From IMG/VR virus record IMGVR_UViG_2617270980_000010: a stretch of 30,570 nt of DNA. One strand, given 5' to 3'. Positions 18,299-20,378 of the stretch are shown one piece after another. The DNA is from a virus (taxonomy: Duplodnaviria; Heunggongvirae; Uroviricota; Caudoviricetes). Within the stretch, counting starts at the first letter, position 1. Each line of letters opens with the position of its first letter. Both the position numbers and the translations under genes were made by a program. The notes beneath the pieces were generated by a model, which searched no databases, was not told where the DNA came from, and saw only the letters and a program-made list of their open reading frames with translations.

Positions 18299-18899
18299 CC
18301 GACTTTTACCCGTTGGTTCATCACCGCTGGAAGTCGCCGCCGCTGCCGCGCTCGCAGAGATTAAGCGTGTGCCGGTACCGCTGCGCACGTTGTGGAACTG
18401 GCGCGACTGCCCGGTGAAGCTGTTGCCGTATCTGGCATGGGCGCTGTCGGTCGACAGGTGGGATGAGAAGTGGCCGGAGGCGACAAAACGCAGCGTCTGT
18501 GCTTCCTCGTTTTTCATCCATCAGCACAAAGGCACCATCAGCGCATTGCGTCGGGTGGTTGAGCCGCTCGGTTTTCTGATTGAGGTGCGCGAATGGTGGC
18601 AGCTCGGCGAGGAGCCAGGCACATTCCGCCTTGTTGTCGGTGTGCTCGACAGCGGCATTACTGACGAAATGTATCAGGAGCTTGAGCGTCTGATTGAAGA
18701 CGCCAAACCGGCAAGTCGCCATCTGACCGGGCTGGCTATCAGTCTGAGCGCGACCGGCGAACTGTGTGTCGGCGCAGGATGCTATCACGGCGACGCGCTG
18801 ACCGTTTACCCCTACACCCCAGAGGAAATTGTCGTCGGCGGTGAATATTACCCGGCCTCGGCCATCCATTTGATTGATAACCTGAGAGTGAATGCATGA
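18291..18899 (+). CDS. I: baseplate protein gpI
   Basis: 202 aa, overlapping J and H as in P2. Confidence 0.85.
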   Translation: MSDRLLPVGSSPLEVAAAAALAEIKRVPVPLRTLWNWRDCPVKLLPYLAWALSVDRWDEKWPEATKRSVCASSFFIHQHKGTISALRRVVEPLGFLIEVREWWQLGEEPGTFRLVVGVLDSGITDEMYQELERLIEDAKPASRHLTGLAISLSATGELCVGAGCYHGDALTVYPYTPEEIVVGGEYYPASAIHLIDNLRVNA

Positions 18900-20206
18900 C
18901 CGCAAAATATCTTGCTATTCTGACCAATCAGGGCGCGGCGCGACTGGCGAACGCGGCGGCACTCGGTACTAAACTCAACCTGACGCAGATGGCCGTCGGT
19001 GATGCGAATGGTACGCTGCCAACTCCTGACCCGGCGCAGACGAAGCTCATTAACCAGAAGCGTATCGCACCGCTGAACCTGCTGACCGTTGACCCGGCCA
19101 ATACCAGCCAGATTATTGCGGAACAGATTATTCCCGAGAATGAGGGTGGTTTCTGGATCCGCGAGATTGGTCTCTACGATGACGACGGCATTCTGATTGC
19201 CGTGGCAAACTGCCCTGAGACCTACAAGCCGCAACTGCAGGAGGGAAGCGGACGCACGCAGACCATTCGCATGATTCTGATTGTGTCAAGCACGTCGTCT
19301 ATTACTCTGAAAATTGACCCGTCGGTTGTGCTGGCAACCCGAAAATATGCCGATGACAAGGCAATTGAGCTGAAACTGTATGTCGATGACTTGATGTCTA
19401 AACACCTTGCGGCGGCTGACCCGCATTCACAATATGCGACAAAGGACAGCCCGACATTTACCGGCAAGCCAAAAGCACCCACGCCGCCGGTCGTAGCAAA
19501 TGATACACAAGTTGCTACAGCGGGGTTTGTGCAGGCGGTTATTGCCGCCCTTGTATCCGGGGAACTGGCGAATAAGCAGCCGCTGGATAAGACGCTAACA
19601 GACCTGTCAGGGAAAGATGTCGCCGCTATTCTCGAATACCTTGGTTTGGGAATTCGCGGGCTCTCTACGTTTACAGCATCGGGGTCGTGGACATGCCCTG
19701 AAGGTGTCACGACTGTTTATATTGATGCTTGTGGGGGGGGTGGTGGCGGTGCTTATTCATCACCAGGTGCGACAGGTGGCGGTGGCGGCGGTGGAGCGGC
19801 CGCTGTTATAGGCGCGTCTATTTCGGTAACTCCGGGCGTCACCTACACAGTAACAATTGGTGGCCCAGGGGCGGCAGGTACTTCTTCATCGGTAAATGGT
19901 GTGGCCGGTGGTGCTACGTCATTCGGTAGTCTGCTGGTGCTTAACGGTGGAGGCGGCGGCTTATCAAGTGCAGGTGCCGGTGTAGGAGGTGGAACCGGAG
20001 GGAATGCAGGTACAGCTGGCGTACTGAATGGCGGTGTATCATTCGGCGGCTCTGGCGGTGGATGTGTGTTGGGTAATGGTGGCGCTGGCGGGAGCGGCGC
20101 GATGTTTGGCACGATACCAGGCCAGTATGGCGGTGGCGGCGGTGGTGGTGCTAATGGCGGCTCCGGAGCGCGTGGTGCGTATGGTATTTTGAAATTGAGG
20201 TGGTAA
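18896..20206 (+). CDS. H: tail fiber protein gpH with a glycine-rich C-terminal receptor-binding module
   Basis: N-terminal about 250 aa (MTAKYLAILTNQGAARLANA...) matches the P2 gpH conserved anchor as recalled. The C-terminal about 170 aa is poly-glycine-rich (runs of G6-G7). Total 436 aa versus 669 in P2. Confidence 0.85.
   Translation: MTAKYLAILTNQGAARLANAAALGTKLNLTQMAVGDANGTLPTPDPAQTKLINQKRIAPLNLLTVDPANTSQIIAEQIIPENEGGFWIREIGLYDDDGILIAVANCPETYKPQLQEGSGRTQTIRMILIVSSTSSITLKIDPSVVLATRKYADDKAIELKLYVDDLMSKHLAAADPHSQYATKDSPTFTGKPKAPTPPVVANDTQVATAGFVQAVIAALVSGELANKQPLDKTLTDLSGKDVAAILEYLGLGIRGLSTFTASGSWTCPEGVTTVYIDACGGGGGGAYSSPGATGGGGGGGAAAVIGASISVTPGVTYTVTIGGPGAAGTSSSVNGVAGGATSFGSLLVLNGGGGGLSSAGAGVGGGTGGNAGTAGVLNGGVSFGGSGGGCVLGNGGAGGSGAMFGTIPGQYGGGGGGGANGGSGARGAYGILKLRW
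19733..19740 (+). repeat. G8 homopolymer tract inside the tail fiber coding region
   Basis: gtGGGGGGGGt read directly at 19733..19740, encoding part of CGGGGGG. Confidence 0.9.
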
Positions 20207-20210
20207 TCAT

Positions 20211-20378
20211 ATGGAACCTGATATTTATGCTGTCGTTGTTGATGGCGTTGTGGTGAATGTTGTTATGTGGGATGGGGTATCTGACTGGAGGCCTGAGAAA
20301 GGAGAGGCCGTCAAGACTGACGGCACTGTTGGGATTGGCTGGACCTACTCAGGCGGAGTGTTCTATTCACCTGAGTAG
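20211..20378 (+). CDS. small hypothetical protein after the tail fiber gene (possible fiber accessory protein)
   Basis: Hand translation: MEPDIYAVVVDGVVVNVVMWDGVSDWRPEKGEAVKTDGTVGIGWTYSGGVFYSPE (55 aa), with GAGGTGG 10 nt upstream. Below the ORF-track cutoff. Occupies the slot of the P2 tail fiber assembly gene G but is unrelated in size. Confidence 0.35.
   Translation: MEPDIYAVVVDGVVVNVVMWDGVSDWRPEKGEAVKTDGTVGIGWTYSGGVFYSPE

What the first reader, a model, noticed from the sequence alone, without database searches (positions are those of the whole stretch)
18896..20378. Tail fiber with a swapped glycine-rich C-terminal module and no P2 G-type assembly chaperone
The N-terminal anchor of gpH is conserved, but the C-terminal half is replaced by a poly-glycine-rich region with repeated G5-G7 runs, and the protein is about 230 aa shorter than P2 gpH. 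Instead of the 175-aa fiber assembly gene G, only a 55-aa ORF follows. This indicates a receptor-binding module exchange, likely with an intramolecular or minimal chaperone, and may specify a different host receptor.
Basis: partly seen in the sequence, partly recalled or inferred. Interest (0 to 1): 0.45.

Follow-up and report, generated by a model that had tools for sequence, protein, structure and literature searches.

The report
Portable glycine-rich tail-fibre tip cassette
A P2/186-like E. coli prophage makes its tail fibre from a standard anchor joined to a glycine-rich tip and a 55-residue mini-chaperone; both lie in a 2.5-kb invertase-type DNA cassette shared almost identically with unrelated phages, an instructive combination of known parts rather than a new kind of system.

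Summary
ORF 18896-20206 (436 aa) has a P2 gpH-type N-terminal anchor and a glycine-rich C-terminal half (Pfam Gly_rich_2), followed 4 nt later by a 55-aa ORF.

The fibre gene is split at a Gin/Pin-type crossover site (19629-54). A second, inverted site lies at 22122-47, and a 123-nt inverted repeat lies inside the sites.

The 2.5 kb between the sites is 99.2-99.7% identical to cassettes in two unrelated prophages that carry a Gin-like invertase. Similarity stops exactly at the sites. This window has no invertase.

In 73 of 81 viral loci this small domain directly follows a glycine-rich fibre, so the pairing is standard for this fibre class.

The second arm of the cassette is a 41-codon stump. 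The rest is replaced by low-GC DNA encoding a Stealth/GT-A-like polysaccharide transferase.

An intact sister cassette was found in both orientations, with the breakpoint at the predicted core.

Verdict: a new variant of known kinds, of moderate interest.

The parts
18896..20206 (+). Tail fibre gene (436 aa). The constant P2/186 gpH-type part is codons 1 to about 248. The variable TNF-like plus glycine-rich tip runs from about codon 249 to 436.
   Evidence: ORF list. Pfam PF12571 E 4e-62 and PF21722 at 27.2 bits. PHROG 327/6202 for the N-terminal part and PHROG 863/6202 for the C-terminal part. A profile of the tip hits Pam3 gp24 (7ypx_A) at E 1.5e-20.
19629..19654 (+). Left Din-family (Gin/Pin/Cin-type) crossover site TTCTCGAATACC-TT-GGTTTGGGAATT, with the core TT at 19641-19642. 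It encodes ...ILEYLGLGI..., the junction between the constant and variable parts.
   Evidence: It is the only match in the window to the consensus at 3 mismatches or fewer, against 0.01 expected. It is the shared end-point of similarity to L002 (ends 19652) and L003 (starts 19629). The core TTGGTTTGGGA equals the e14 P-segment repeat published in PMC12529663.
19623..19745 (.). Left arm of the 123-nt inverted repeat (84% complementary to 22031-22153).
   Evidence: the repeat finder pair I1 and the alignment of the two arms.
20211..20378 (+). 55-aa ORF: a stand-alone fibre-binding beta-sandwich domain of TFA-type tail fibre chaperones (phrog_14370).
20430..22030 (.). Low-GC (0.28-0.34) insert that replaces most of the second arm of the cassette.
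   Evidence: Composition profile. The right-hand repeat arm ends at 22031.
20499..20678 (-). 59-aa ORF downstream of the transferase gene; function unknown.
   Evidence: ORF list. Annotated as hypothetical by PGAP in L001. No hit in Pfam, PHROGs or NCBIfam.
20683..21897 (-). Cargo gene, 404 aa from the first ATG. The likely true start is 21828, giving 381 aa. It encodes a Stealth/GT-A-like sugar(-phosphate) transferase of surface-polysaccharide synthesis.
22005..22130 (-). 41-codon stump of a second glycine-rich variable part (Hv'): MGIRGLSTFTASGLWTCPEGVTTVYIDACGGG, then VAFIERDCH and a stop.
   Evidence: ORF list. Alignment to the fibre gene. In-silico inversion gives a truncated 291-aa fibre.
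22031..22153 (.). Right arm of the 123-nt inverted repeat.
22122..22147 (-). Right crossover site (minus strand) TTCTTTCAAAGG-TT-GGTTTGGGAATT. The inner half-site and core are identical to those of the left site.
   Evidence: Similarity to L003 ends at 22140, and similarity to L002 resumes at 22125.
22149..22172 (+). Intrinsic terminator-like hairpin GGCGGGC-TGAT-GCCCGTC followed by a T run. It closes the fibre operon just outside the cassette, before the sheath-gene promoter.
   Evidence: Terminator scan. The sequence is conserved in L002.

Best explanation
The fibre gene is a two-part gene of the Mu S / e14 StfE type.

Anatomy:
- A constant P2/186 gpH-type anchor (codons 1 to about 248) is joined to a variable tip at a Gin/Pin-family crossover site that encodes LGLG.
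- The tip lies inside a 2.5-kb cassette bounded by two inverted crossover sites (cores at 19641/2 and 22134/5).
- The cassette carries three things. First, a TNF-like plus glycine-rich receptor-binding module of the Pam3 gp24 class. Second, directly downstream, a 55-aa single-domain chaperone. Third, on the other strand, the first 41 codons of a second glycine-rich tip, with the rest replaced by low-GC DNA that holds a polysaccharide transferase gene.

How it most likely works:
- The cassette moves as a unit between unrelated myophage prophages by recombination at its two sites.
- In this prophage no invertase is present, so the cassette is most likely fixed in the fibre-producing orientation.
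- The 55-aa protein most likely binds the side of each nascent TNF-like/glycine-rich domain, as the N-domain of Pam3 gp25 does.
- Trimerisation would be left to the fibre's own anchor, because the chaperone's helical trimerisation domain is absent.

Shown: the anatomy, the cassette boundaries, the homologies, the synteny, and inversion in a sister cassette.

Inferred: chaperone activity, the fixed state, an LPS-type receptor, and the enzyme's substrate.
For: Sites and boundaries:
- A 123-nt inverted repeat at 84% complementarity.
- A crossover-site consensus hit at 19629-54, against 0.01 expected.
- Both sites share TT-GGTTTGGGAATT. The published e14 P-segment repeat is TTGGTTTGGGAGAAGG (PMC12529663).
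- The window matches L003 only over 19629-22140 (99.7%) and L098 only over 19630-22141 (99.2%). Both are different phages with a Gin-like invertase next to the right site. The L003 invertase matches Gin (3uj3) at E 1e-56.
- The sibling 186-like prophage L002 is 99.6% identical up to 19652 and similar again from 22125, but holds a different cassette. In-silico inversion at its sites gives an in-frame 402-aa alternative fibre.

Inversion in nature:
- L096 holds an intact two-tip version: two glycine-rich tips, mini-chaperones of 55 and 77 aa, and an invertase.
- Its predicted inverted product exists exactly in a public assembly (L101). The breakpoint falls at the TT core.

Fibre tip:
- Pfam Gly_rich_2 and a profile hit to Pam3 gp24 at E 1.5e-20.

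Chaperone:
- About 130-aa relatives add a Caudo_TAP domain.
- 73 of 81 viral loci place the domain -3 to +54 nt after a glycine-rich fibre. 56 of the 81 are stand-alone forms.

No invertase:
- Pfam scan of candidate ORFs and tblastn with four invertases (best E 0.44).
Against: - Nothing shows physically that the 55-aa protein binds or folds the fibre. The sequence-level link to gp25 is marginal (E 0.023), so the claim rests on the fold and on synteny.
- I did not model the tip in three dimensions.
- The right outer half-site is a poor consensus match (5 mismatches).
- Whether the exchange between phages used the invertase or short-homology recombination cannot be told from sequence.
- Pin-type invertases act in trans on e14 (PMC12529663), so 'fixed' is not proven. 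I could not check the rest of the host genome for invertases.
- The cassette with a dead arm persists next to invertases in other phages. That is unexpected if inversion only produces defective fibres.
Confidence: 0.75

Rival explanations
1. The segment is still an active switch. A Pin/Gin-type invertase encoded elsewhere in the host inverts 19642-22134 in trans. Lysogens would then alternate between a full fibre and a truncated 291-aa fibre, and the transferase gene would become co-oriented with the late fibre operon (a fibre ON/OFF switch).
For: - Both sites are intact, with identical inner half-sites and cores.
- PinE, PinQ and PinR all invert the e14 P segment, two of them from other prophages (PMC12529663).
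- The sibling prophage L002 keeps two intact alternative tips without an adjacent invertase.
- Programmed inversions are enriched next to 'phage tail protein I' and tail fibre assembly genes (PMC9881135).
Against: - The predicted inverted product (291 aa) is absent from about 15 billion proteins, while the normal 436-aa fibre is on 41 contigs.
- No inverted junction was found in the viral or metagenome scans.
- Gin/Hin/Cin-type inversion normally needs a Fis-bound enhancer in cis, which lies inside the invertase gene (my knowledge, not tested here). That gene is missing.
- The inverted state would yield fibres without a receptor-binding tip.
Confidence: 0.2
2. The 55-aa protein is not a transient chaperone. 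It would instead be a retained fibre-tip accessory that contributes to receptor binding, or a small protein with an unrelated role.
For: - The chaperone's trimerisation domain is missing, so the Pam3 mechanism cannot apply in full.
- To my knowledge Mu TfaU stays on the fibre (North et al. 2019, cited in PMC9608196; not re-read here).
- The family is annotated 'unknown function' (phrog_14370).
Against: - The best structural match is the fibre-binding domain of a chaperone that is absent from Pam3 virions.
- Tight operon position, with a 4-nt gap and its own ribosome-binding site.
- Relatives fuse the same domain to Caudo_TAP or DUF4376 modules typical of assembly proteins.
Confidence: 0.15
3. 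The 55-aa ORF is a decayed remnant of a roughly 130-aa TFA gene, and the glycine-rich fibre folds unaided or through an intramolecular chaperone.
For: - Long relatives of about 130 aa exist (25 of 81 loci).
- Pam3 gp24 expressed alone yields a small soluble fraction that includes trimers.
Against: - Stand-alone forms are the majority: 56 of 81 viral loci and 92 of the top 150 representatives are 80 aa or shorter.
- They keep their length and a conserved motif at 45-60% identity.
- The AF2 model is a complete, confident domain.
- The fibre has no sequence after the glycine-rich domain that could serve as an intramolecular chaperone.
Confidence: 0.07
4. The resemblance to crossover sites is incidental. 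On this view the tip was acquired by ordinary homologous or illegitimate recombination, and the inverted repeat is a by-product of a duplication.
For: - The right outer half-site matches the consensus poorly.
- No invertase is present here.
Against: - Four independent phage backgrounds break similarity inside the same 26-bp sites.
- Invertase genes adjoin the right site in L003, L005, L096 and L098.
- A natural inversion was seen with its breakpoint at the TT core of the homologous sites.
Confidence: 0.04

Closest known systems
Phage Mu G segment / Gin, P1 C segment / Cin, and the e14 P segment / Pin (Din-family invertible tail-fibre segments)
   Same: - The fibre gene is split into a constant part and a variable part at a 26-bp crossover site that encodes LGLG.
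- The two sites are in inverted orientation.
- Each variable part is followed by its own assembly gene.
- The core TTGGTTTGGGA is shared with e14.
- Sister cassettes sit next to a Gin-like invertase and do invert.
   Different: - This window has no invertase and therefore no cis enhancer.
- One arm is reduced to 41 codons and replaced by a non-fibre cargo gene.
- The variable parts are glycine-rich Pam3-type tips rather than the collar-type tips of Mu, P1 and e14.
- The assembly genes encode single-domain proteins of 55-77 aa rather than Caudo_TAP proteins of about 175 aa.
Cyanophage Pam3 fibre gp24 and chaperone gp25 (PDB 7YPX/7YFW; PMC9608196)
   Same: - The TNF-like plus glycine-rich tip matches by profile at E 1.5e-20.
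- The gene order is the same.
   Different: - The anchor is of P2 gpH type, not the Pam3 helical bundle.
- The chaperone lacks residues equivalent to gp25 64-162, the helical trimerisation domain.
- The module lies within an invertase-type cassette.
Phage P2 genes H and G (and 186-like Eganvirus relatives such as EtG and Midge)
   Same: - The N-terminal anchor matches (PF12571; about 55% identity to P2-group gpH over residues 24-158; 93% DNA identity to Midge and EtG over the first ~500 nt).
- The gene position is the same, between gene I and the sheath gene.
   Different: - The C-terminal 190 aa are unrelated.
- There is no Caudo_TAP gene G.
- EtG and Midge show no TTGGTTTGGGA site.
Salmonella phage S16 / T2-type gp38 adhesins and the ALK glycine-rich domain (polyglycine-II lattices)
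   Same: Glycine-rich motifs alternate with variable segments. The Pam3 paper places gp24, S16 gp38 (6F45) and ALK (7LIR) in one structural class.
   Different: No direct sequence hit to gp38 or ALK was obtained here. gp38 is a separate adhesin attached to gp37, not the C-terminus of the fibre.
Klebsiella phage fibres TFP_Y (SCNJ1-Y) and MMNM_27, and Klebsiella Peduoviridae such as Kp4865-2
   Same: - TFP_Y is described as similar to Pam3 gp24 and MMNM_27 as its homologue; both are tied to LPS as receptor, and the host-range mutations of TFP_Y lie in its glycine-rich domain (PMC12671077).
- Kp4865-2 has a P2-type anchor (69% identity), a glycine-rich tip and a stand-alone small ORF.
   Different: - The tip sequences are different.
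- No invertase-type cassette is reported for them.
- The receptor of the fibre in this window is untested.

Membership tests
P2 gpH-type tail fibre (Phage_tail_fib, PF12571) | N-terminal baseplate-anchor domain | tested here: met
   Residues 1-150, E 4e-62, full profile covered. 418 phage records share the anchor.
P2 gpH-type tail fibre (Phage_tail_fib, PF12571) | Gene lies between gene I (Tail_P2_I) and the sheath gene FI | tested here: met
   The Tail_P2_I ORF is at 18291-18899 and the sheath ORF at 22274-23452.
Pam3 gp24-class fibre tip (Gly_rich_2, PF21722) | Sequence match to the family model above its curated cut-off | tested here: met
   27.2 bits against 24.3, so barely above the cut-off. 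PHROG 863 gives E 3e-26.
Pam3 gp24-class fibre tip (Gly_rich_2, PF21722) | Homology to the solved gp24 TNF-like plus glycine-rich domains | tested here: met
   A profile of 87 homologues against 7ypx_A gives E 1.5e-20, covering chain residues 66-286. The single sequence alone gives only E 0.1.
Pam3 gp24-class fibre tip (Gly_rich_2, PF21722) | Four-layer lattice of extended glycine-rich motifs in the three-dimensional structure | not tested
Tail fibre assembly protein (TFA; Caudo_TAP PF02413; P2 G, Mu U, lambda Tfa, Pam3 gp25) | Caudo_TAP / C-terminal helical trimerisation domain | tested here: not met
   The 55-aa ORF has no Pfam hit. The protein ends at the end of the beta-sandwich. Relatives of about 130 aa do carry Caudo_TAP, at E values down to 2e-32.
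Tail fibre assembly protein (TFA; Caudo_TAP PF02413; P2 G, Mu U, lambda Tfa, Pam3 gp25) | N-terminal fibre-binding beta-sandwich fold | tested here: met
Tail fibre assembly protein (TFA; Caudo_TAP PF02413; P2 G, Mu U, lambda Tfa, Pam3 gp25) | Gene immediately downstream of its client fibre gene | tested here: met
   The gap here is 4 nt. The pairing holds in 73 of 81 viral loci.
Tail fibre assembly protein (TFA; Caudo_TAP PF02413; P2 G, Mu U, lambda Tfa, Pam3 gp25) | Binds the fibre and is required for its folding | not testable with these tools
   This needs co-expression or a solved or multimer-predicted complex.
Din-family invertible tail-fibre segment (Mu G, P1 C, e14 P) | Two 26-bp crossover sites in inverted orientation with the same central dinucleotide | tested here: met
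   Left site 19629-54 has 3 mismatches to the consensus (0.01 expected). Right site 22147-22122 has 5 mismatches. The core TT and inner half-site are identical in both. The e14 repeat was taken from PMC12529663.
Din-family invertible tail-fibre segment (Mu G, P1 C, e14 P) | Two alternative in-frame variable parts, each with its own assembly gene | tested here: not met
   Inversion in silico gives a truncated 291-aa product. The feature is met in the relatives L002 (402 aa) and L096 (286 aa plus a 77-aa ORF).
Din-family invertible tail-fibre segment (Mu G, P1 C, e14 P) | Serine invertase gene adjacent to the segment | tested here: not met
   No Resolvase ORF or remnant exists anywhere in the window. 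One is present beside the same cassette in L003 and L098, and beside sister cassettes in L005 and L096.
Din-family invertible tail-fibre segment (Mu G, P1 C, e14 P) | Both orientations observed | tested here: inconclusive
   For this cassette, no inverted product or junction was found. For the sister cassette L096, the inverted state was found in L101 with the breakpoint at the core.
Stealth / GT-A-like sugar(-phosphate) transferases (cargo gene 20683-21828) | GT-A-like catalytic fold closest to the Stealth enzymes | tested here: met
Stealth / GT-A-like sugar(-phosphate) transferases (cargo gene 20683-21828) | Sequence match to a curated family model | tested here: inconclusive
   DUF6492 scores 20.7 bits against a cut-off of 22.9, and N6_N4_Mtase 22.4 against 26.7; both are below cut-off. 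A few homologues carry DUF6492 or WavE hits. No Stealth Pfam model was hit.

The most novel reading that the evidence does not exclude
The crossover-site-flanked cassette may be more than a fibre switch. It could be a vehicle that carries a receptor-binding tip, its mini-chaperone and a surface-polysaccharide-modifying gene together between unrelated myophages. The two invertase sites would serve as portable exchange handles.

Where an invertase is present or acts in trans, inversion would toggle lysogens between making complete fibres and making tip-less fibres with the transferase gene reading with the late operon. That would be a phage-borne ON/OFF switch linking adsorption competence to modification of the likely receptor.
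Probability: 0.15. Interest if true: 0.6.

Novelty: new variant of a known kind. Interest (0 to 1): 0.45.

Why it matters
- It assigns a probable role to a large, unannotated family of small phage ORFs (phrog_14370; at least 519 representative clusters). They would be single-domain fibre chaperones that lack the trimerisation module assumed in current models of TFA action. This asks directly whether the beta-sandwich 'tentacle' alone is enough to fold a glycine-rich tip.
- It gives unusually clean evidence that Gin/Pin-type crossover sites mark the exact boundaries at which host-range modules are exchanged between P2/186-like, Mu-like and other myophages.
- It shows that such cassettes can pick up non-fibre cargo: here a polysaccharide transferase, and elsewhere a ClpP-like gene.
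- For phage engineering, the LGLG junction is a natural, proven splice point for grafting glycine-rich tips onto different anchors.

Tried and rejected
- tblastn of the glycine-rich half and of the 55-aa ORF against the phage collection found nothing. This is probably due to the low-complexity filter and to the short, diverged 55-aa query, because Klebsiella phage Kp4865-2 in that same collection has both features by HMM.
- The first tblastn attempt used the wrong frame.
- NCBIfam gave nothing for the fibre, the 55-aa, the 59-aa or the 404-aa proteins.
A 9-sequence alignment worked.
- Exact look-ups of the in-silico inverted products of the window, L003, L002, L005 and L098 were all negative. 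Only the L096 product was found.
- Junction-specific DNA scans gave 0 inverted and 1 normal junction in viral contigs and 0 in metagenomes, too few to be informative.
- No crossover site was found in EtG, Midge, L013-L015.
- The promoter scan of the cassette was at chance level (7 found, 8.0 expected), so I make no claim about a promoter for the cargo gene.
- The N6_N4 methylase hit for the 404-aa protein was rejected. It is below the cut-off, and both the fold and the genomic context point to a glycosyl/phosphoglycosyl transferase.
- The scFv hits of the glycine-rich profile were rejected as probable Gly-Ser linker artefacts.
- I could not search the rest of the E. coli 600029 genome for invertases with the tools available.
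Full report
**1. The observation**

The window is a complete P2/186-like prophage.
- A tyrosine integrase lies at 241-1251(-), and C-like and Cox regulators follow.
- The late genes run rightwards, and a host cation-efflux gene starts at 29650.

The ORF at 18896-20206(+) encodes 436 aa.
- Residues 1-150 match Pfam Phage_tail_fib at E 4e-62.
- Residues 264-427 match Gly_rich_2 at 27.2 bits, just over the cut-off of 24.3.
- The translation shows glycine runs of 5-7 residues.

A 55-aa ORF (20211-20378) starts 4 nt after the fibre's stop and is preceded by GAGGTGG.

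No Caudo_TAP gene follows. The next rightward gene is the sheath gene at 22274.

The locus is 99.9% identical to a prophage of E. coli 600029. It is the only one of 5426 complete E. coli genomes that holds the whole stretch. The exact fibre protein is on 41 public contigs.

**2.

Between the 55-aa ORF and the sheath gene lies a block of GC 0.28-0.34. It carries two minus-strand ORFs of 404 and 59 aa. Next to them is a 41-codon minus-strand ORF that repeats fibre residues of about 250-280 and then stops.

The repeat finder reports a 123-nt inverted repeat, 19623-19745 against 22031-22153, at 84% complementarity.

At the outer edge of each arm lies a 26-bp sequence of the Gin/Cin/Pin/Hin crossover-site type.
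- Left: TTCTCGAATACC-TT-GGTTTGGGAATT (19629-54, + strand).
- Right: TTCTTTCAAAGG-TT-GGTTTGGGAATT (22147-22122, - strand).
- The consensus I wrote from memory hits the window once at 3 mismatches or fewer, at the left site, against 0.01 expected.
- The shared inner half and core match the published e14 P-segment repeat TTGGTTTGGGAGAAGG (PMC12529663).
- The left site encodes ...ILEYLGLGI....

**3. The cassette boundaries are exact**

| Comparison | Region of the window that matches | Identity | Source |
|---|---|---|---|
| L003, an unrelated E. coli prophage | 19629-22140 only | 99.7% | |
| L098-L100, Mu-like tail modules in Yersinia and other samples | 19630-22141 only | 99.2% | |
| L004 / L005, which share the tip and the small ORF | 19630-20363 | 97% | |
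| L002, the sibling 186-like prophage of E. coli CX21 | up to 19652, and again from 22125 | 99.6% and 95% | |

L002 holds a different interior between the two sites: a fibre tip and tfa on the + strand, and a second tfa and tip on the - strand.

Cutting and inverting L002 in silico at the predicted cores gives an in-frame 402-aa alternative fibre with a classical collar-type tip.

The same glycine-rich tip, always starting at LGLGIRG, is fused to at least five unrelated N-terminal anchors.

**4. Invertases and real inversion**

A serine recombinase gene follows the right site in L003, L005, L096 and L098. The L003 protein matches Mu Gin (3uj3) over its full length at E 1e-56.

The window has no such gene or remnant. 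The best tblastn E-value with four invertases is 0.44.

L096, a Mu-like prophage, holds an intact two-tip version.
- On the + strand: a glycine-rich tip and a 55-aa ORF.
- On the - strand: a 77-aa ORF and a second, diverged glycine-rich tip.
- An invertase gene follows the segment.
- My in-silico inversion gives a 286-aa alternative fibre.

That exact predicted protein exists in a public assembly. Its contig, L101, is collinear with L096 up to position 5296. It then continues as the reverse complement of L096 from 6894, at 100% identity. Those two positions are the TT cores.

So the sites are functional in nature for this cassette family.

For the window's own cassette I found no inverted product or junction, so its present state is unproven. 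Two points make a fixed state more likely.
- The prophage has no invertase.
- From my knowledge, the cis enhancer that normally lies inside the invertase gene would also be missing.

Against this, Pin enzymes are known to act in trans.

**5. The fibre tip**

[quoted passage not shown] The single sequence alone gave only E 0.1.

In the Pam3 paper (PMC9608196):
- the domain is a lattice of extended glycine-rich motifs with variable distal loops proposed to bind the receptor;
- it resembles S16 gp38 and the ALK glycine-rich domain.

In Klebsiella phages, gp24-like fibres are linked to LPS, and host-range mutations map to the glycine-rich domain (PMC12671077). An LPS-type receptor here is therefore an inference, not a result.

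P2-type anchors fused to glycine-rich tips are not unique to this prophage.
- PHROG 6202 matches both halves of the fibre.
- At least seven other viral contigs show the fusion.
- Klebsiella phage Kp4865-2 shows it as well.

**6. The 55-aa ORF**

- It matches phrog_14370, annotated 'unknown function', at E 2e-15.
- An exhaustive HMMER search finds 519 representative relatives.
- Of the top 150, 92 are 80 aa or shorter.
- Relatives of about 130 aa add a Caudo_TAP domain, and those of 170-200 aa add DUF4376.
- The AF2 model (pLDDT 94.6) has five strands.
- The family profile aligns to gp25 residues 4-62 at E 0.023.

[quoted passage not shown] Residues 64-162 form the trimerising helical bundle. 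gp25 is absent from virions.

Across 80 viral loci, 73 of 81 copies of the small domain begin -3 to +54 nt after the stop of a glycine-rich fibre ORF. Of the 81, 56 are stand-alone forms and 25 are long forms.

The 55-aa ORF is therefore the standard, conserved partner of this fibre class. It is best explained as a chaperone reduced to its client-binding domain. The activity itself is inferred.

**7. The cargo**

- The 404-aa ORF probably starts at 21828, giving 381 aa. This is the PGAP start, and residues 1-23 of the model are disordered.
- The model is confident (pLDDT 91.6).
- Homologues at 45-60% identity lie in ABC-transporter-type polysaccharide clusters with WavE, GT2 and acyltransferase genes.
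- It is most likely a captured surface-polysaccharide transferase. The substrate and any role in lysogenic conversion are inferred.

Other cassettes carry other cargo in the same place.
- L005 has a ClpP-like gene inside the invertible segment.
- L095 has an Acyl_transf_3 gene convergent to the fibre.

**8. Verdict**

It is incomplete, however.
- 'Intramolecular chaperone' has no support.
- The small-ORF arrangement is standard for glycine-rich fibres.

The locus combines two known systems, a Din-type fibre segment and a Pam3-type fibre with its chaperone. The combination appears as a decayed, invertase-less variant that carries cargo.

I rate it a new variant of a known kind, with interest 0.45.

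Noticed in passing
window 20430-22030 (ORFs 20683-21897 and 20499-20678, minus strand): A low-GC (0.28-0.34) insert inside the cassette encodes a Stealth/GT-A-like transferase. Its homologues lie in ABC-transporter polysaccharide clusters. A 59-aa ORF with no homologues found follows it. This may be a receptor-modifying moron.
   Followed up: partly
L005 5419-7034 (Mu-like prophage, GCA_048591945.1): The same glycine-rich tip and small ORF sit in an invertible segment whose opposite arm carries a ClpP-like 183-aa gene with its own ribosome-binding site. Inversion would give a 117-aa truncated fibre.
   Followed up: partly
L096 5296-6894 and L101 (Logan ERR3469088): An intact two-tip glycine-rich invertible segment with mini-chaperones of 55 and 77 aa. 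Both orientations exist in public data, and the breakpoint is exactly at the TT core.
   Followed up: yes
L095 6268-7176 (Kluyvera, Pam3-like minimal myophage): An Acyl_transf_3 (O-acetyltransferase-like) gene lies convergent to a glycine-rich fibre and a 67-aa small ORF. This is a second case of a polysaccharide-modifying gene next to this fibre class.
   Followed up: no
L002 4230-6136 (E. coli CX21 prophage): A 186-like prophage with two intact alternative fibre tips and two tfa genes between Pin-type sites, but no adjacent invertase. It may depend on an invertase acting in trans.
   Followed up: partly
window 28500-29500 (ORF 28965-29381, minus strand): A second GC dip (0.42-0.45) near the right end of the prophage holds a 138-aa ORF without any Pfam hit. 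It may be another moron.
   Followed up: no
window 2180-2680 (+) and GC dip 2501-3000: A 166-aa early-region ORF has no Pfam hit, and the local GC is 0.42.
   Followed up: no
window 22149-22172 (+): A strong terminator-like hairpin lies immediately outside the right crossover site. It is conserved in L002, so either orientation of the segment would be terminated before the sheath-gene promoter.
   Followed up: partly
PDB 9d93 chain Qa ('Tail wing brush, gp33'): The glycine-rich profile also hits this solved phage protein at E 5e-8. I did not identify the phage or examine the structure.
   Followed up: no
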